Shown: positions 572-64,000 of the stretch, piece by piece | Position numbering within the stretch: position 1 is the stretch's first letter | Layout: every line of letters begins with the position of its first letter | Assembly: GCA_951406725.2 (NCBI GenBank) | Contig: OX597832.1 | Location: 186,001-250,000 of the forward strand | From: Octopus vulgaris | Lineage: Eukaryota | DNA length: 64,000 nt | Direction of reading: 5' to 3' | Notes under the pieces: generated by a model | What the model was told of the DNA's origin: nothing | The model's database searches: none | Seen by the model: the letters and a program-made list of their open reading frames with translations, nothing else | Program-made: the position numbers and the translations under genes

Positions 572-893
572 GAGAGGAAAAATTATAATGAGGCAGAATG
601 CTAATTTGAAAGTAAATTTTAATAAAAATGTGTGTATGAAAAATTAAAAAAGAAAAAATGATAAGTCAAATAATATGGAATGCTTCACGGATTTGCACTA
701 GCTACGGCAGTACATATGCTAAAATTGGAACAGTATAGAGATTAGCATGGCCCCTGCGCAAGGATAACATCCAAATTCTTGAAGCGTTTCATATTCTTTG
801 ATTTATTTTTTAATTTTTTAATTTTTCATACATCCATTTTTATTAAAATTTACTTTCAATTTAGCATTCTGCCTTATTATAATTTTTCCTCTC
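572..893. repeat. Inverted repeat enclosing the U6 copy (arms ~572-696 and ~771-893)
   Basis: 572-696 is the reverse complement of the U6 3' end plus ~95 bp of downstream flank. (TA)n/(TG)n tracts lie on both sides (486-526, 898-1003). Confidence 0.9.
695..799 (+). pseudogene. U6: U6 snRNA pseudogene
   Basis: gcactagctacggcagtacatatgctaaaattggaacagtatagagattagcatggcccctgcgcaaggataacatccaaattcttgaagcgtttcatatt follows U6 along its whole length. The ACAGAGA box is mutated and shortened (atagag), and the upstream sequence is an inverted repeat rather than a promoter. Confidence 0.93.
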
Positions 894-15042: not shown

Positions 15043-15438
15043 ACTAGCAGTATCGCCCGGCGTTGCTCGGGTTTGTAAGGGAAATAATTATATAAGCATT
15101 TTTAGAGATGTAAAGTATAATAGCCATCTCAATATGGCTAACCACAAAGGGGTAGGGGTGTTACTGTAGCTTTTTACGTTCTGAGATTTAATAATAAATT
15201 TTAGAGAGTTACTTCCCTTATATATGTCAAAAATGGATTAAAATGGGAAAAATTGATGGTAAATTTTTTTTTAAATCGTAGACTCATCGTAGACGTGCGC
15301 TAATACCCAGACGGTCTCGATATGAATCACGACTATAAGATACCCGGTTTTGGTTAAACTGCACTGCAAAATGTGGGAGTAGTTAGGAATCTAAATCGTA
15401 GGAGACAGACACACAACCTCACTTTTATATATAAAGAT
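15043..15438 (+). mobile_element. Non-autonomous Helentron/HINE (Helitron2-type) element
   Basis: Begins actagcagtatcgcccggcgttgctcggg (subterminal hairpin), ends cagacacacaacctcacttttatatataaagat, and lies in a (TA)n tract. Confidence 0.7.
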
Positions 15439-15539
15439 TTCCTCTATTTACATAATATTGAGGTCTCTTTCTTTCTTTTGTTATCTTACTGTTTTTACCA
15501 ATATACATATATATATATATATATATATAAATATATATA

Positions 15540-15866
15540 TAGTTACAGAGATGTACTTGCATAGCAAGTGACTTGATCTGAGATCGTGTGCTGGAATGAA
15601 AACAGTTGCAGCGTTGAAGGTGTTTATAAGCCATTTAAGAAACACACAAAAACCGTTAGATTCACTTCAACATTTAAATTTAATTTGTCAAAATATTTTC
15701 GTCGCTTTGAGACCGCGACCTGTTAGCACGATATTTTTGTCAGTGAACAGGTCGCGGTCTCAAAGCGAGGAAAATATTTTGCCAAATTAAATTTAAATGT
15801 TGAAGTGAATCTAACGGTTTTTGTGTGTTTCTTAAATGGCTTACAAACACCTTCCACGCTGCAATA
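15540..15866. mobile_element. Palindromic PLE-type tail with variant hammerhead
   Basis: Near-perfect inverted arms ~15606-15724 and ~15746-15864, flanked by (TA)n. Confidence 0.8.
15736..15786 (+). ncRNA. Minimal type I hammerhead-like motif with G3:C8 core
   Basis: tttgtca-GTGAACA-g-GTCGC-ggtctcaaa-GCGAG-GAA-AATATT-T-tgccaaa. The mirrored arm reads GCGAC and tgacaaa, which restores perfect stems I and II. Confidence 0.6.
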
Positions 15867-15882
15867 TATATATACACACATA

Positions 15883-15913
<31 letters not shown>

Positions 15914-15949
15914 GTGTATATGTGTATGCATGTATGTGTGTGTGTGTGC

Positions 15950-16170
15950 GTGTCTGTGCTTGTGATTGTCCTCCACCACTGCTTGACAACGAATGTTGGT
16001 TTGTTTACATCCCTGTCACCTAGTGGCTTGACAAAAGAAACAGATAGAATAAGTACAATGCTTACAAAAATAAAACTGGAGTTGATTCATTAAACTACAA
16101 TTCTTCAAGGCATTGCCCCAGCATGGCCACAGACCAATGGCTGGAAAAAGCAGAAGAATAAAAGAATACA
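15950..16170 (+). mobile_element. Octopus-type SINE, 3' part
   Basis: gcttgacaac..gatagaataagtac..ccagcatggcc..aaaagaata, as in 50727-51130. Confidence 0.65.
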
Positions 16171-16229
16171 TTCTCTGCTTTGGTCTTATGTTCAAGGCAT
16201 GAGAAAGCTTGAGTTTACATGAGAAGGCC

Positions 16230-16520
16230 TAACAGACCTGGTAGAAACAGCAGCCAAATCTCCCTCAAATCACACCTTACTGTCTTATGTATGTATATAT
16301 ATATGAGCCAATGAGGGGGACCTCTACATGGTAGCTAGACCTGGTAGAAATAGCAGCCAAATTTCCCCCAAATCACACCTTACTGTCTTATCTATGTATA
16401 TATGTATGTATGAGCCTATGAGGGAGACCCCTACATGGCAGCTAGACATGGTAGAAATAGCAGCCAAATCTCCCTCAAATCACACCTTACTGTCTTATGT
16501 ATGTATATATATATATACAA
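16230..16520 (+). repeat. Three tandem ~105-bp units
   Basis: agacctggtagaaatagcagccaaatctccctcaaatcacaccttactgtcttat occurs three times, each followed by a TA-rich spacer. Confidence 0.85.
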
Positions 16521-17034
16521 GCCACTACGGTTATTTAATGTAAAGTCTTCCTCAAATCACTCTCGCTATTTACTCTCTTCGAAGAACATTTTCACTCACT
16601 CTTATCTCTTAGCTTGCCATACATTTTACTCATGTATCTATCAGCGTGATAGACAGAAACAAATATTACATCGCCATCGCCATCGCATTCTATTGTCTAC
16701 CTGTCAACACACACACAGTGAATTACTTTCATTTTATTCGTTGCACACTGTGTGTGTGCGTGTGCGTGCGGTGTAAACCACATTAAGAAAAGCATTTGAC
16801 ATACACACCAGAATGTGAGTTTTCTGTAAATTTTGCTTAATTGGAGTTTAAATTTTAAAAACTGGACCTGGCATGACCCGATGCATTCTACTCTTAAAAA
16901 TGCTAGGTAAATTGTAATTGAAGAAATCCTATATTGTAGATTTCTATAACTGACAAAGGGAGGCAGATAAAATCTGCCTTTTATAATAAGAGATATATGT
17001 GTGTGTGTGTATCTATACACGTGTGTGTGTATAT

Positions 17035-29574: not shown

Positions 29575-32500
29575 AGAGCTTTTCTTTTAGGGAAGGAGAG
29601 AAAGAAAAAAGTGGGTCAAATTCTGACCAAAAGGGATCGTAAAAAAAAAGGTGGGGGCTGATCAATAGGGATCATGTATCACAGAAATGTCAATGTAAAA
29701 AGAGAAAGCAGGTTAGGTTTATCTGTGAAAAGAGAAGCCTATAGAAAATACCATGGGAACCTTGGGTAATAGTTTAATGCAAAAAAAACACATTACAGTA
29801 AGGGGCTCTCTTTTTCCATTCGCTTTTTTTTTTTTTTTTGTTTTATAGGATTATGCTCAAGTTGGCTCTGTCATTCACACGTTCCATCCTTGCTACATTC
29901 ACCCATCTTTTTTGAAACATTCACTAGACGAAACTTCTCTCTCTACTTTCACCTTCTGCTTCAAGTCATACTTGAAGAAGTCGATGAGAGATTGACCAGA
30001 GAGGAAAGTGTTTATCTCTAGACCTTTCAGATGTGTCCACCATACACATTCTTTCGCCTTAGCCATAAGTATGATGAAAATGGCTCTTCCTTCACGTTTC
30101 AACAATATTCATGATAGATTCAGTTGATAAACCGACTTGTCCCACATGCAATAGCAGTTGTTCAATATAGGCCCACAGGTCAGAAATGGTTGAACACTGT
30201 ACAAGTGTGTGCAGGACGATTTCGTCGCTCTGACCGCATCTCAGACAAGTTGGCCCCGTGTTTCTTGAACCATGCCTATAGAGCTTATCCCGAATGGGTA
30301 GCACTTCTCGATAGCACTGCCGGGCTAGGGATCTCTGGAAGTTGTCCATAGGTCCCAGCCCAAAAGTCACCTTGAACAGGCATGTCAGGTATTACTCGTC
30401 GACGCCCAAGTTCGCCCTGAGATTATTGTTGTACCTCCCCTCCACTAATCCCATATAGAATGCCTTCATTGTGTTGAAGTTGCTCGAAGTCGACCCGGAA
30501 TGGCATAGTTGCCTGAGAGCAACACAACACTCGTGGTGCAATTCACTCTTCTTTGGCCTCTTTTTGATCCACGAGTGCAGTTCGGTCATGGAGACGAGCT
30601 GCGGGAAAGCGCGCTTCACAAACGACGACCACACCTGTTCACCATCATCTACATAGAGCCGGAGATGTCGCAGTCTCAGCATGTGTCTGCACATCATCAG
30701 CCACGGCATGCCCAGCCCTCCTTTTAACGGGTGTTGGCAGCAAACGTATTGCTTGACCATCAGAACGCATACTTTCCACAAGAAGCGGAAGAGAATGTGT
30801 TCTAGTTTGGTGATGGTAGGGTTGGGACAAGGTACGACAGTCAGGCGGTAGTAGATGGCGGATGCGATGTACATGTTCGCCACCTCTGCCCAACCTTTTA
30901 GGGACAGCATCCTCACAGTCAATTGCCGGGCGAGAGTGACTACCCTACTTGTTATCTCGTTCCAGTTCTTCTCCATTTGGAGGTCTGGACCAAACCAGAC
31001 CCTGAGCAACTCAACTAGACTGTCGGTCCAGCGTCCCACAACAGAGGTGTTGGTAGATGGCATGGGCTTGCTTCTCCAGGTGCTGAGCTGCAAGCCCATT
31101 GACTTTTCCTGGTTGATTTTCGCTCCTGTTACTGCTTCATAGTCTTTCAGTGTCTTGCCGACCGGCTCGGTGTTCTTCTGGCTAGACACTATGAAGGTGA
31201 TGTCGTCCACATATGCAGACACGCTCGTCCTACATCCCAATTCTCGCAGGATGCACCTCAGCGTCACCAGCTTCTGCAGTAGTGGCTTGAGAGTCAATAC
31301 GTGTAGAAGCAACGAGAGGGGGCATCCCTGACAGACTGAACGAGCAATGTTGAAAGGTTTCAATAGATGTCCATTTTCACGGATTACCGAACAGATGCCT
31401 TTGTACAAAGCAGCTATCCAGCCGTGTAAGACGGGACCGAAACCAGCCACTATGAGGACAGCCTCCAAGTATTGATGGTCTACCCTATCAAAAGCTTTGG
31501 ATTGATCCAAGTTGATCGGGGCCCCACTCATGCCTGGTTCCTTAACTACCCTGTCTATGATGTGGCGCATCAGATGGAGGTTCTCATGGATGCTCCGGCC
31601 TGGCACAGTGCACGTTTGTGCCTTGTCGACCAGTTTCTCGATGACAAGCGCCAACGTTACGGCTCCTCGGCTCACAAAACCAGTTATGCTCCCGTTTTGC
31701 TGCCAGTTGTAGTACACTGCTGCCAAGATATCTCCAAACAAGTCTGGCATACAACTGTAAAGCTCATAGGGTAGACCATCCAAACCCGGTGATTTGTCCC
31801 TCGAGCATTCTGACATTGTGTTCCGCATTTCCGCCGCCGTGATGGCACCTTCACAGCACCTTGCCTCTTTTGTCGAGAGTCGTGGTAGGCAGTGTAGGTA
31901 GGCACTGAAGTCCACCCTGCATTCTCGCCCGCCACTCGTCCCGAACAGTCGGGCTAAATGATGTTGAAAGGCCTCACACATTTTGCTTGGCTCGAGTAAT
32001 TCACGCCCCTGTTCATCCACCAGAGACCGAATGGTGGCTTTGTTGCCCTGTTGTGCCTCCGCCACATGGGTCTCTCACGTGACTCCAACACCTTAATTCC
32101 TTAGAGCACGCATCCTAGCTCTAACAACACACCCTTCGAGTTTGGCGTTGAAGTGTTGGTCGAGAGCCAACCTCGCTGCCAAAACGTTGGATACAATACC
32201 ACTTCTAATTGCCTCATCTAGCTTCTTAACTAGGTCACCTTCTACTCTGTTTCTATCTATGGCTAGTGCTTTGTTATACCTAATCACTTCTGCTTTTATT
32301 GCTCTCTTGAGGGCAAACCACCATTTGTTGTTGATGATGTCTCCTGTCAAAGCCCTCTTTACTAGTGTGTTAATCCGGTCTCTGAAAACCTGTCTTGATG
32401 GGAAAGCCATGTTTAGTTTCCAGTACCCAGGACCCTGCCTATGTGACTTACCTAAGTCTAGCGTACATGTCACAAGTTTCTGATCCATGTAGCTGACTAT

Positions 32501-33990
32501 GTGGAATTGTGGACACTCTACGCTATCTCTATCTACTGTCCTACACAGTATCCTATCTAGATATGATCTTGACAACCCAATGCGGTTGCTCCATGTCCAC
32601 GTTGGCGCATTTGGGTGGTCAAGTTGGTACCTGTCAAACAGTTGAAAGCATCTGAGCAGGTCTCTGAGGCATTTGCATCCCTGTCTATTCCTATTTCTGC
32701 TCACGTAGTCTACATGTGTCTAAGGTAGCATTCCAATTCCCCCATTAAAAGTAAAGGACGAGACATTCCTAGGAATACTTCTAGACATCAAAAGAAATCT
32801 GGCCAACTTGTTAAAGGCGGTGTGTAGACTGATACGAGATGAAAAGTGCACCCATTGCTGCTGTCAACATCTAGGATGACCAGTCTACCCTCTGGGTCTA
32901 CGAATATTGTCTTTACTTCGAGATCCAGACTCTTGCGAAAATATACCATGATTCTCTATACTACCCATTCTCAGCAGACAGAGAAAAATAAATGTTAAAC
33001 TGTCTGCCAAACATGGACTTTAGGGCCCATGGATTATGGAGTCTGGTCTCACTTATGGCTATGATTTCTAACTTCTGTGACTTTATATCATTTAAGAGGT
33101 ACCCTTGTTTCCAAGGGGACCCCAAGCCACGCACATTTACACAACCAGTCTTGATAATAATCCCAGTGAATTAAAACACAAATGAAAGTAACAGAGGGTT
33201 ACTTACTGCTCAAAAGTTTTTGCTTTCTCCTCCTTTGGTTTGTCGTTGAGGAGATCCCAATACAGTTTCTTCGTAAGGTATTTTTGGCATTTACCAAACT
33301 GCACTGGGGAAAATGCCTTTTAGTGTGTGGTGTAGACTTCGTAAAATATGTAGTATTTTGATGTGATCCGGTGGTGTTGTGTATGGGTGGTTGTTTGTTT
33401 TTATGTCATCTGTTATGTTTGTGTTTGATTTGATGTATTGATTTGTTGTAGGCTTCTATGTGTGTTTGTGTAAGTGGTTGTGTTGTTGTTTTCATTGGTT
33501 GTTGACTGTTTGTGTGTGGTGTGTGCAGTATAGGGGATGGGGAATCTATTGTATTATTTTTTGTTTTTCTGTTCCTTTAGTTCTTGCTGTTGTTGGTGGT
33601 GTTGGTATTTTCTCAGGTGTTGTATTATTTTTGATTGTTGATGGATTTGCTTGGTGTGCTTCTTCTGTTGTCTTCTGTGTTGATGGTGGTGTGGGTAGTA
33701 GTGCTTTTTTCTCGGAGTGTTTTGGTTGTGGTTGTTGTTGTTGCTCTCGTTGTGTGGCAGTTGGACACTTCTTTTTCAAATGTGTCTTGCTGCCGCACCG
33801 ATAGCAGTGTGGTCGCCTGCTCTCCACCACTACATAAAGTTTGTAGCCTTCTGGCAGTTTTATAGTGGGGGATACCTTTTCTGTTGTTGTTTCATCAATT
33901 TGAAGGAGTAATTGCATTGATTTTCTATTCCAGTTTTGCTGTTCTAGAACCTAAATAAGTCGGTATCATCACCAAGTCATCTGTATGCAG
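29575..33990 (-). mobile_element. Tx1/L1-clade LINE (ORF1 C-terminus, APE-RT ORF2), pseudogenised
   Basis: ORF1 CYRCGSKTHLKKKC zinc knuckle. APE motifs CVNVRGL, SYLDRI and GPGYWKLN. RT motifs KSPGLDG, LDQSKAFDRVDH, QGCPLS and AYVDD; GGLG; C-terminal CLRC..E...H...C. Confidence 0.93.
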
Positions 33991-39885: not shown

Positions 39886-41275
39886 CATCATCATCATCAT
39901 CATCATCATCGTTTAACGTCCGTTTTCCACGCTAGCACGGGTTGGACGGTTCGAATGGGGTCTGGGGAGCCAGGGGCTGCCCCAGGCTCCAGTCTGATCT
40001 GGCAGTGTTTCTACAGCTGGATGCCCTTCCTAACGCCAACCACTCCGCGAGTGTAGTGGGTGCTTTTTACGTGCCACCTGCACAGGTGCCAGAGGGGTCT
40101 GGCATCGGCCACGATCGGTTGGTGCTCTTTTATGTGCCACCGGCACAGAAGCCAGTCAAGGCGGTGCTGGCATCGGCCACGGTCGGATGGTGCTTTTTAT
40201 GTGCCACCGGCACAGAAGCCAGTCGGGGCGGTGCTGGCATCAGCCACGTTCGGATCAACCGGCACAGAAGCCATTTGAGGCGGGGTTGGCATCGGTCACG
40301 TTCGGATGGTGCTTTTTATGTGCCACCGGCACAGAAGCCCGTGGAGGCTGCACTGGCAACGGTCACGTTCGGATGGTGCTTTTTATGTGTCACCGGCACA
40401 GGTATCATAACTACTGTTTCCATTGATATTTGGTTCGATGTTCATGTACATGCACTTGACTCAACAGGTCTCCTCAAGCACAGCGAGATGTTCTGGGATC
40501 CCACGATCGGTTGATGCTTTTTATGTGCCACCGGCACAGAAGCCAGTCAAGGCGGTGCTGGCATCGGCCACGTTCGGATGGTGCTTTTTATGTGCCACCG
40601 GCACAGAAGCCAGTCGGGGCGGTGCTGGCATCAGCCACGTTCGGATCAACCGGCACAGAAGCCATTTGAGGCGGGGTTGGCATCGGTCACGTTCGGATGG
40701 TGCTTTTTATGTGCCACCGGCACAGAAGCCCGTGGAGGCTGCACTGGCAACGGTCACGTTCGGATGGTGCTTTTTATGTGTCACCGGCACAGGTATCATA
40801 ACTACTGTTTCCATTGATATTTGGTTCGATGTTCATGTACATACACTTGACTCAACAGGTCTCCTCAAGCACAGCGAGATGTTCTGGGATCCCACGATCG
40901 GTTGATGCTTTTTATGTGCCACCGGCACAGAAGCCAGTCGAGGCAGTGCTGGCGTCGGCCACATTCGGATGGTGCTTTTTATGTGCCACCGGCACAGGAG
41001 CCAGTCGGGGCGGTGCTGGCATCGGCCACGTTCGGATGGTGCTTTTTATGTGCCACCGGCACAGAAGCCATTCGAGGCAGGGTTGCCATCGATCACGTTC
41101 GGATGGTGCTTTTTATGTGCCACCGGCACAGAAGCCAGTGGAGGCTGCACTGGCAACGGCCACGTTCGAATGGTGCTTTTTATGTGTCACCGGCACAGGT
41201 ATCACAACTACTGTTTCCATTGATATTTGGTTCAATGTTCACTGGCAACGGCCATGTTTGGATGGTGCTTTTTAT
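39885..41275 (-). repeat. RTE 3' tail with ~59-bp minisatellite and ~391-bp higher-order repeat
   Basis: Unit ggtgctttttatgtgccaccggcacagaagcc...; the marker ccacgatcggttg recurs at ~40109, 40501 and 40892. Confidence 0.9.
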
Positions 41276-44800: not shown

Positions 44801-46083
44801 TGAGGGACGTTCAATAAGTAATGTCCCTGACCCACTTGCAGTTGTTTGATCTAGCTGAAATTTTGCATGTGCAATTATTTATATCTCAATAGATTAAGTG
44901 GCAAATTACAGCTCTGAACTAATTGGGGTTTCTGATTTACAGGTGTTTGAACTGAGTCAAGTGTGAAATGGAGCCTGTTGAGTATCGAGCAGTGATCCGG
45001 TTTTTGTATTTGAAAGGACACACACCACGGGAGACTTTTGATGAAATGAAAGTAACTTATGGTGATGATGCCCCATCATATGACCTTGTAAAACGCTGGC
45101 ATCGTGAATTCAAACATGGTCAGAACTCTGTGGAAACAGCTCCCTGATCTGGTTGCCCCACTTCTGCCATTGATGAGGCATCTGTCCGTCAAGTTGAGGC
45201 TGCCATTTTGGAAGATCGACACATAACTATTCGCCAAATAGCCCATGAGGTCAAGATTAGTACCGGGTCTGTGGAAACTATCATTCATGACCATTTGCAT
45301 ATGCAAAAGGTGTCTGCCAGATGGATTCCCAGGCTACTCACACCTTTCCAGAAGCAAGAACGCGTCGAGTGCTCGAGGATGAATTTGGAGATGTGCCAAA
45401 AAGATGAGTCAAAATTTTTCAAAAGACTGATTACACAGGATGAAACCTGTGTCCATCACTATGATCCAGAGACCAAAGCCCAGTCAATGCAGTGGAAGCA
45501 CCGTGACTCACCTCCTCCAAAGAAGGCAAGGGTGCAGCCCTCCGCTGGCAAGGTCATGCTCACCGTCTTCTGGGACCAGGACGGAGTAGTGATGACAGAT
45601 TTCCTGGCAAAAGATACCACAATTACAGGAGCCTATTATGCTTCACTTTTGAGGAAATTAAGAGAAGCTATCAAAATCAAGAGGCGGGGCAAGATCAGCA
45701 AAGGCATCCTCCTCCTGCAGGACAACGCTCCGGTCCACAACTCGCATGTCGCCAGATCAGAAGCACAGGCGTGTGGCTATGAACTCCCCCCTACTCTCCT
45801 GACCTTGCACCCTCTGATTTTCACCTCTTCCCAGCCATGAAGTTGTTTTTGAAAGGAAAGCGTTTCCCAGATGATGCAGCCTTGATTTCTGAAGCCACAT
45901 CGTAGTTGGAGGACCAAGCTGGGGTCTTCTACAAAAATGGTCTCCAAAGCTGCATCAAATGATGGGAGAAATGCGTAACTCTGGGTGGTTCCTATGTAGA
46001 AAAAGACTAATAACTGTGCCAAGTTTCATTGCTCTACTGCTATGGGAAGTGGGTCAGGGGCATTACTTACTGAACGCCCCTTG
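44801..46083 (+). mobile_element. Full-length mariner element (irritans/Hsmar2-like), transposase pseudogene 44968-46010
   Basis: TIRs tgagggacgttcaataagtaatg and cattacttactgaacgccccttg with TA duplication. Motifs WIPRLL, ITQDET, LQDNAP and YSPDLAP; in-frame stop at ~45145 and a frameshift at ~45790. Confidence 0.96.
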
Positions 46084-62921: not shown

Positions 62922-64000
62922 CGAGGGACGTTCAATAAGTAATGCCCCTGACCCACTTGCAGTTGTTTGAAATTTTTGCATGTGCAATTATTCACATCTC
63001 AATAGATTAAGTGGCGAATTACAGCTCTGAACTACTTGTGGTTTCTGATTTACAGGTGTTTGAACTGAGTCAAGTGTGAAATGGAACCTGTTGAGTGTCG
63101 AGCAGTGGTCCAGTTTTTGTATTTGAAAGGACACACACCACGGGAGACTTTTGATGAAATGAAAGTAACTTATGGTGATGATGCCCCATCATATGACCTT
63201 GTAAAACGAAGGCATTGTTTATTCAAACATGGTCGGAACTCTGTGGAAACAGCTCCCAGATCTGCCCCCCCCCCTTCTGCCATTGATGAGGCATCTGTCC
63301 GTCAAGTTGAGGCTGCCATTTTGGAAGATCGACGCATAACTATTCGCCAAATAGCCCATGAGGTCAAGATTAGTACCGGGTCTGTGGAAACTATCATTCA
63401 TGACCATTTGCATATGCAAAAGGTGTCTGCCAGATGGATTCCCAGGCTGCTCACACCTTTCCAGAAGCAAGAACGCGTCGAGTGCTCGAGAATGAATTTA
63501 GGGATGTGCCAAGAAGATGAGTCAAAATTTTTCAAAAGACTGATTACACAGGATGAAACCTGGGTCCATCACTATGATTCAGAGACCAAAGCCCAGTCAA
63601 TGCAGTGGAAGCACCGTGACTCACCTCCTCCAAAGAAGGCAAGGGTGCAGCCCTCCGCTGGCAAGGTCATGCTCACAGTCTTCTGGGACCAGGACGGAGT
63701 AGTGATGACAGATTTCCTGGCAAAGGGTACCACAATTACAGGAGCCTATTATCCTTCACTTTTGAGGAAATTAAGAGAAGCTATCAAAATCAAGAGGTGG
63801 GGCAAGATCAGCAAAGGCATCCTCCTCCTGCAAGACAACGCTCCGGTCCACAACTCGCATCTCGCCAGATCAGAAGTACAGGTGTGTGGCTATGAACTCC
63901 TCCCCCATCCCCCCTACTCTCCTGACCTTGCACCCTCTGATTTTCACCTCTTCCCAGCCATGAAGTTGTTTTTGAAAGGAAAGCGTTTCCCAGATGATGC
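62922..64000 (+). mobile_element. Second copy of the mariner element, running off the window
   Basis: Same TIR after TA and ATG at 63081. Highly similar to 44801-46083 but with different indels. Confidence 0.95.

What the first reader, a model, noticed from the sequence alone, without database searches (positions are those of the whole stretch)
15736..15786. Natural-looking G3:C8 compensatory hammerhead core
Seen: GTGAACA sits exactly where CTGANGA should be, between a 7-bp stem I (tttgtca/tgacaaa, using the mirrored arm) and a 5-bp stem II (GTCGC/GCGAC), followed by GAA and palindromic stem III AATATT. Established: positions 3 and 8 form a Watson-Crick pair in the active hammerhead, so swapping C3/G8 to G3/C8 preserves the pair, and palindromic stem III allows dimeric cleavage. 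Inference: a functional variant that standard CTGANGA searches would miss. It also has an extra G after A9 and a UUU cleavage triplet.
Basis: partly seen in the sequence, partly recalled or inferred. Interest (0 to 1): 0.8.

Follow-up and report, generated by a model that had tools for sequence, protein, structure and literature searches.

The report
Octopus retrotransposon hammerhead with swapped pair
This is a damaged copy, carried along inside another jumping gene, of a hammerhead-shaped RNA motif that about 6,000 retrotransposon copies in this octopus-like genome carry with its central C-G pair flipped to G-C, a swap I found in print only as a lab mutant; intact copies likely self-cleave weakly, but that is untested.

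Summary
The swap is real at family level; this copy is broken. The motif is the pLTR minimal hammerhead of a Penelope-like retroelement (RT plus GIY-YIG). It has 6,272 genomic matches; 94 of 100 listed are G3+C8 and none is C3-G8. A sister family (57% RT identity) has a hammerhead at the same place with C3-G8 and three further compensated pairs. In relatives the 3:8 pair is Watson-Crick in 11 of 11 clean motifs: C-G 7, U-A 3, G-C 1. G3-C8 is derived. The extra G and U17 are ordinary for this class. The window copy has a broken 10.1:11.1 pair and a stem I mismatch, is predicted to be locked in a 119-bp hairpin, and rides in a non-autonomous Helitron (at least 412 copies, 83 with the same break). 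A mispaired G3·G8 lineage also spread, so the pair is not essential for mobility. Cleavage is untested. Natural U3-A8 and engineered G3-C8 are published; I found no natural G3-C8, but three key papers were not held. New variant of a known kind.

The parts
15736..15786 (+). Type I minimal hammerhead motif of a Penelope-like element, damaged copy (11.1 is G, 1.3 is C)
   Evidence: family form
15743..15750 (+). Core positions 3-9 with G3 (15743) and C8 (15748), plus the extra G after A9
   Evidence: G3+C8 in 94 of 100 listed of 6,272 matches
15751..15769 (+). Stem II and loop; closing pair 10.1:11.1 is G·G here, G-C in the family
   Evidence: 83 carrier copies share the break, 329 do not
15770..15779 (+). 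G12-A13-A14, 6-nt palindrome (dimer stem III) and U17; predicted cut after 15779
   Evidence: dimer model (predicted only)
15726..15864 (+). Sense pLTR fragment, 5'-truncated, ending at the shorter of two preferred 3' ends
15836..15864 (+). Remnant of the element's ORF start (ATG at 15836, 56 nt after the predicted cut)
   Evidence: family B N-terminus matches the start of family C's intact ORF, 9 of 22 identical, pairwise E 0.001; the 9-aa window remnant alone gave no alignment
15543..15724 (-). Inverted pLTR fragment with the optional 3' tail, lacking G3-G5; antisense to the sense arm
15044..16993 (-). Non-autonomous Helitron-like carrier, 1.95 kb: 5' TC at 16993, 3' hairpin and CTAG at 15044, inserted between A and T
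   Evidence: at least 412 copies; Helitron hallmarks recalled
15044..15437 (-). Inner short Helitron unit with its own 5' TC end; the carrier likely arose by gaining a new upstream 5' end and capturing the DNA between
   Evidence: inner 5' end present in 30 of 30 copies; capture route inferred

Best explanation
The motif is the hammerhead of an octopus Penelope-like retrotransposon family in which the core C3-G8 pair has flipped to G3-C8; intact copies likely cleave their RNA weakly after U17, and the window copy is a likely dead passenger inside a Helitron-like element. Shown: position in the pLTR of an RT + GIY-YIG element, just ahead of the ORF start; homology to a C3-G8 hammerhead in the sister family with four compensated pairs; G3-C8 in the youngest clade. 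Inferred mechanism: stem II folds within each motif, two motifs pair their palindromes as a shared stem III, the core of one cuts the partner strand, probably with help from the element's own protein; the cut would leave a 5'-OH RNA starting 56 nt before the start codon. Cleavage would be slow and optional, since thousands of insertions were copied from uncut RNA and a mispaired G3·G8 lineage also spread. The window copy was captured with its inverted twin and now spreads by rolling-circle copying with no selection on the ribozyme.
For: Parent element: ORF end with GIY-YIG about 0.9 kb upstream of the motif (weak Pfam GIY-YIG hit E 0.001, below cut-off); 12 of 31 ORF-bearing loci showed the motif downstream by pattern. 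Families A, B, C. B keeps core and stems while loop II differs. C has C3-G8 with double changes at 3:8, 10.4:11.4, 15.2:16.2 and 2.3:1.3. With 3, 4, 7, 8 and 9 left free, 13 of 14 candidates have a Watson-Crick 3:8 pair (permutation p 1e-5, relatedness ignored); 11 of 11 after dropping three doubtful picks. Tree: A/B sister to C (SH-aLRT 99, quick tree). 8 of 8 labelled rows of the youngest 17-row clade are G3-C8. No change at 3 or 8 reaches 5% in contigs of four runs under four organism labels. C3G/G8C partly restores cleavage of a PLE hammerhead, protein-assisted (PMC11167929). Foreign junctions exactly at the cut: 26 of 55 versus 7 of 100 listed (135 total) at one control site, p about 0.009. 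Window copy: hammerhead pair probabilities at most 0.09 alone, 0.0 with the mirrored arm.
Against: No cleavage assay or RNA-end data. About 145 of 6,272 matches are G3·G8 (44 of 100 listed of 330), about eight times the reciprocal change at position 3 (10 of 100 listed of 169), and 8 of 52 tree rows carry it: a mispaired core was mobilised. Family C has C at position 9, another core departure. The AU-only palindrome is very weak (duplex -0.2 kcal/mol). I found no full-length tandem A/B element to supply a partner. The junction excess rests on one control site, hand classification, and a possible gradient; in held loci only 1 of 38 arms starting within 45 nt lies at the cut. A and B pLTRs are about 90% alike overall, so stem conservation between them is weak evidence. 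PMC11167929 found cleavage unnecessary for insertion in vitro.
Confidence: 0.7

Rival explanations
1. The family motif descends from a hammerhead but no longer cleaves; it is kept as a fold bound by the element's protein or simply hitchhikes in the pLTR, and G3-C8 was reached by drift through a G3·G8 step.
For: G3·G8 lineage spread; most copies keep an uncut motif; sister family has C9; very weak stem III; cleavage dispensable in vitro for another PLE.
Against: 3:8 stays Watson-Crick in 11 of 11 clean relatives with three pair types; oldest and youngest copies are G3-C8; a G3·G8 motif could still be cut by an intact partner in a dimer (inference); weak junction excess at the cut.
Confidence: 0.22
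2. The window locus itself is a working ribozyme.
For: Core letters intact; 329 sister carrier copies keep C11.1.
Against: G10.1·G11.1 and a stem I mismatch; fails the descriptor; predicted sequestration in a 119-bp hairpin; the break spread freely to 83 copies.
Confidence: 0.04
3. The hammerhead likeness is chance in an AT-rich repeat.
For: No Rfam hammerhead match for window or intact copy.
Against: Descriptor chance rate 0 to 0.07 per 64 kb; same position and four compensated pairs in the sister family; Rfam also misses the C3-G8 sister.
Confidence: 0.03

Closest known systems
Minimal type I hammerheads of metazoan Penelope-like elements (Cervera and De la Pena 2014, PMC4209133; parts 1-2 of 4 and supplement part 1 of 3 read)
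   Same: Lies in the pLTR; extra nucleotide between 9 and 10.1; G10.1-C11.1; palindromic 15.2-16.2; U17 common; dispersed truncated and inverted copies.
   Different: Core is G3-C8; the paper reports C3-G8 and a U3-A8 covariant in the parts read.
Poseidon PAc hammerhead of Anolis and its C3G/G8C mutant (PMC11167929; passages and section 3 part 2 read)
   Same: Hammerhead next to the ORF start; two 3' ends separated by a tail; the double mutant is the same swap and partly cleaves.
   Different: There the swap is engineered; here it is the natural state. Here the cut lies before the start codon, not inside the ORF.
Natural U3-A8 hammerheads (Perreault et al. 2011, PMC3088659; passages read)
   Same: Natural covariation at the 3:8 tertiary pair.
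   Different: Transition-type swap in other hosts; the present case needs two transversions and puts the purine at 3.
Neptune/Nematis-type PLEs (Craig et al. 2021, PMC8557442; passages and section 11 read)
   Same: C-terminal GIY-YIG, CX2-5CxxC linker, two Cys between GIY and YIG plus two His, (TA)n targets, inverted truncated copies.
   Different: Clade not resolved here; long (TACA)n-rich 3' region; octopus elements listed in the supplement rows seen were Naiads, not this family.
Non-autonomous Helitrons with captured DNA (recalled)
   Same: 5' TC, 3' hairpin and CTRR, A|T insertion, nested 5' end.
   Different: Cargo is an inverted retroelement pLTR pair with a hammerhead; autonomous helper not looked for.

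Membership tests
PLE minimal hammerhead | Literal CUGANGA core | tested here: not met
   G3 and C8; 0 of 100 listed non-G3 matches are C3-G8
PLE minimal hammerhead | Watson-Crick 3:8 pair | tested here: met
   G-C in family; C-G or U-A in relatives, 11 of 11 clean motifs; a minority lineage is G·G
PLE minimal hammerhead | U4 G5 A6 A9, G12 A13 A14, A15.1-U16.1, H17 | tested here: met
PLE minimal hammerhead | G10.1-C11.1 closing a stem II, intact family copies | tested here: met
   1,274 exact matches; family B
PLE minimal hammerhead | G10.1-C11.1 and intact stem I, window copy | tested here: not met
   15769 is G, 15782 is C
PLE minimal hammerhead | Extra nucleotide after A9 and palindromic stem III | tested here: met
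PLE minimal hammerhead | Location in the pLTR of a PLE | tested here: met
PLE minimal hammerhead | Tandem partner for dimer formation | tested here: inconclusive
   no full-length tandem A/B element among fetched loci
PLE minimal hammerhead | Self-cleavage after H17 | not testable with these tools
   only contigs were available; genomic junction hint weak
Rfam hammerhead families | Match to a curated covariance model | tested here: not met
   the C3-G8 sister also fails
Penelope-like element, C-terminal EN | Single ORF with RT then GIY-YIG | tested here: met
   Pfam hits weak, below cut-off; motifs read by eye
Penelope-like element, C-terminal EN | pLTR overlapping the ORF start, inverted truncated copies, optional tail | tested here: met
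Neptune/Nematis clades | CX2-5CxxC linker and CCHH motif | tested here: met
   read by eye against PMC8557442
Neptune/Nematis clades | Placement among named reference elements | not tested
   no named reference sequences were on hand
Non-autonomous Helitron (carrier) | 5' TC, 3' CTRR with hairpin, A|T insertion (recalled) | tested here: met
   3' end found in 25 of 30 copies, all next to the expected base; 5' end in 19 of 30, 18 next to the expected base
Non-autonomous Helitron (carrier) | Mobilisation by a RepHel helper | not tested
   no search made

The most novel reading that the evidence does not exclude
The first natural, catalytically active G3-C8 hammerhead, fixed in a recently transposing octopus retroelement that reached it from C3-G8 through a mispaired G3·G8 state tolerated because an intact partner cuts in the dimer; the flip acts as a tuned brake that lets most RNA stay whole for reverse transcription while a fraction is cut 56 nt before the start codon.
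Probability: 0.3. Interest if true: 0.65.

Novelty: new variant of a known kind. Interest (0 to 1): 0.45.

Why it matters
It would complete the natural covariation set at the hammerhead's 3:8 tertiary pair (C-G, U-A, now G-C) and shows that ribozyme searches miss thousands of motifs in one genome. More usefully, one genome holds a natural allelic series (C3-G8 with C9, G3-C8, G3·G8, broken stem II) on dated lineages, with an intact ORF in the sister family, which makes the open question of whether Penelope hammerheads need to cleave directly testable. The window locus itself matters little.

Tried and rejected
Rfam: no hammerhead match in the window or on intact copies. Six inverted or direct pairs and six further regions fetched as candidate full-length elements held no PLE ORF. 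Pfam gave nothing for the RT pieces or the 1,309-aa ORF. MAFFT alignment of 14 motifs was out of register and was not used. Sequencing runs: no RNA holder listed, contigs only, so nothing on expression or RNA ends. No G3-C8 motif among 18 of 39 metagenome relatives examined; 6 of 20 sequences gave no candidate; picks in L242, L249 and L256 were dropped as irregular; the shuffle p-values are lenient. A3-U8 doubles in 4 of 100 rows fit age-related decay and were not counted as covariation. Ten cut-site junctions explained by stem I fold-back were left out. Earlier findings: none. Literature searches for natural G3-C8 returned only engineered cases or unrelated papers; octopus plus Penelope plus hammerhead gave nothing on this family. 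Lunse 2017, Przybilski and Hammann 2007 and Martick and Scott 2006 were not held; one supplementary file of PMC4209133 could not be searched, and the bioRxiv retrozyme preprint was read in part 1 of 5 only, its supplements closed.

Full report
Observation. On the + strand, however, 11.1 is G and 1.3 is C, so stem II lacks its closing pair and stem I has a mismatch. The mirrored arm (15606-15724, 97% complementary over 119 nt) has the intact letters but no G3-G5. A minimal-hammerhead descriptor finds nothing in the window even at 4+4 bp; shuffles give 0.07 hits per 64 kb at that level and 0 at 5+5. Rfam finds no hammerhead.

What the window copy sits in. The window is G000:C19:186001-250000 of a 2.8-Gb genome; a protein 97% identical to family C is named Octopus vulgaris by its source. 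The best genomic matches share about 1.95 kb with the window. Its ends fit a Helitron on the minus strand (hallmarks recalled): 5' TC at 16993, hairpin and CTAG at 15044; 3' end seen in 25 of 30 copies, 5' end in 19 of 30, and a second, inner 5' end at 15437 in 30 of 30. The simplest route is that a short Helitron gained a new upstream start and captured the DNA between (inference). Exact counts give 83 carriers with the window's broken 11.1 and 329 with it intact. The 1.3 mismatch is private: 1 of 30. Folding gives hammerhead pair probabilities of at most 0.09 for the motif alone and 0.0 with the mirrored arm. This copy is very likely dead cargo.

The parent family. The intact motif from G3 to stem III has 1,274 exact matches; 12 of the 30 fetched were carriers. 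A looser pattern has 6,272 matches, 94 of 100 listed G3+C8, none C3-G8. Longer copies lead upstream through a branch-point and acceptor-like stretch and (TACA)n repeats to an ORF end with GIY-YIG and RT motifs; Pfam hits are weak. The linker and CCHH residues fit Neptune/Nematis-type elements, clade unresolved. Copies show the marks of Penelope-like elements: inverted truncated twins, two preferred 3' ends, (TA)n targets, and a pLTR that runs into the ORF start.

Is it a hammerhead? An RT search shows three groups: A, a young B at 82-84%, and C at 57% with an intact 1,312-codon frame. B keeps core and stems and changes loop II; that is weak evidence, as A and B pLTRs are about 90% alike. C is the strong evidence: at the same place it has C3-G8, the extra G, U17, and double changes that keep pairing at 3:8, 10.4:11.4, 15.2:16.2 and 2.3:1.3 (3 of 4 copies with that core, one with a G5 change). 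C also has C at 9, a short stem I and an imperfect palindrome. Of 39 metagenome relatives I examined 18 with a complete ORF end and enough downstream DNA, plus B and C, leaving positions 3, 4, 7, 8 and 9 free: 14 of 20 gave a candidate, 13 of 14 with a Watson-Crick 3:8 pair (permutation p 1e-5, relatedness ignored). Dropping three irregular picks leaves 11 of 11: C-G 7, U-A 3, G-C 1; extra base 11 of 11; U17 8 of 11. A quick protein tree makes A/B sister to C among mostly C3-G8 relatives, with U-A in two separate places, so G3-C8 is derived. Contigs of four runs under four organism labels show no change at 3 or 8 above 5%.

Against strict need. Position 8 differs from C in 330 matches, G in 44 of 100 listed; position 3 differs in 169, C in 10 of 100 listed, none with G8. 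G3·G8 is thus about eightfold in excess and marks 8 of 52 rows of a DNA tree, at middle age (two rows identical); old labelled copies are mostly G3-C8 and 8 of 8 labelled rows in the youngest clade are G3-C8. The root is unsure, so intermediate versus side branch is open. Thousands of insertions keep the whole motif, so their templates were uncut. The palindrome pairs very weakly, and no full-length tandem A/B element was found.

A genomic hint of cutting. If some RNA is cut, copies should begin at U1.1. Among 55 matches with a non-T before U1.1, I classed by hand 26 as foreign junctions, 10 as stem I fold-backs (left out), 2 as internal deletions, 17 as point changes. At a control site 22 nt downstream, 7 of 100 listed (135 total) were junctions; binomial p about 0.009. 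One control, a possible gradient, and no peak in held loci (1 of 38 arms within 45 nt) make this weak.

Mechanism. Best reading: an intact motif folds stem II, pairs its palindrome with a second motif, and cuts slowly after U17, 56 nt before the start codon, probably helped by the element's protein. This borrows from PMC4209133 (dimers, low activity) and PMC11167929 (C3G/G8C partly active, protein-assisted, cleavage not needed for insertion in vitro); a review passage also notes partial rescue (PMC8495972). In a dimer a G3·G8 motif could be cut by an intact partner (inference). The main rival is a non-cleaving relic.

Novelty. Natural U3-A8 is published (PMC3088659; PMC4209133) and G3-C8 as a lab mutant (PMC3884650 passage). 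Seven searches found no natural G3-C8, but these match words only, and Lunse 2017, the paper most likely to list such variants, was not held. Verdict: a new variant of a known kind, real for the family, broken at this locus, activity untested; interest 0.45.

Noticed in passing
L220 5385-5433 and L226 2489-2540: Family C (young, intact 1,312-codon frame) and a metagenome relative both have C instead of A at core position 9.
   Followed up: partly
L230, L232, L242 downstream of the ORF: Other core departures in relatives: U15.1-A16.1 swap (L230), G at 4 (L232), and by eye A at 12 with C3-G8 (L242).
   Followed up: no
L215 200-225; L101 1570-1600: Branch-point and polypyrimidine-AG acceptor-like signal about 21 nt before G3; 5' ends of short copies cluster there (partly by pattern choice), suggesting an intron end or RNA start as in Drosophila Penelope.
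   Followed up: partly
L037; rows: Ten copies switch strand through the 7-nt stem I self-complement, ending exactly at the predicted cut site.
   Followed up: partly
window 695-798 (+): U6 snRNA copy, 80.3 bits, with changes around the ACAGAGA box; likely a pseudogene.
   Followed up: no
window 45148-45837 and 63069-63998 (+): Two ORFs resembling mariner/Tc1 transposase pieces (resemblance recalled).
   Followed up: no
window 30395-32719 (-): LINE-like ORF pieces of 208 and 560 codons in a GC-richer stretch (resemblance recalled).
   Followed up: no
window 40059-41241: Tandem array of 67/52-bp units with a 391-bp higher-order period.
   Followed up: no
window 16234-16514: 107-bp tandem repeat inside the Helitron cargo, variable in copy number among carriers.
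   Followed up: no
L061, L062, L004, L014: Carrier Helitrons often lie in tandem or inverted arrays.
   Followed up: no
G000 contig C16: Middle-aged ORF-bearing family A copies, including most G3·G8 ones, are concentrated on this contig.
   Followed up: no
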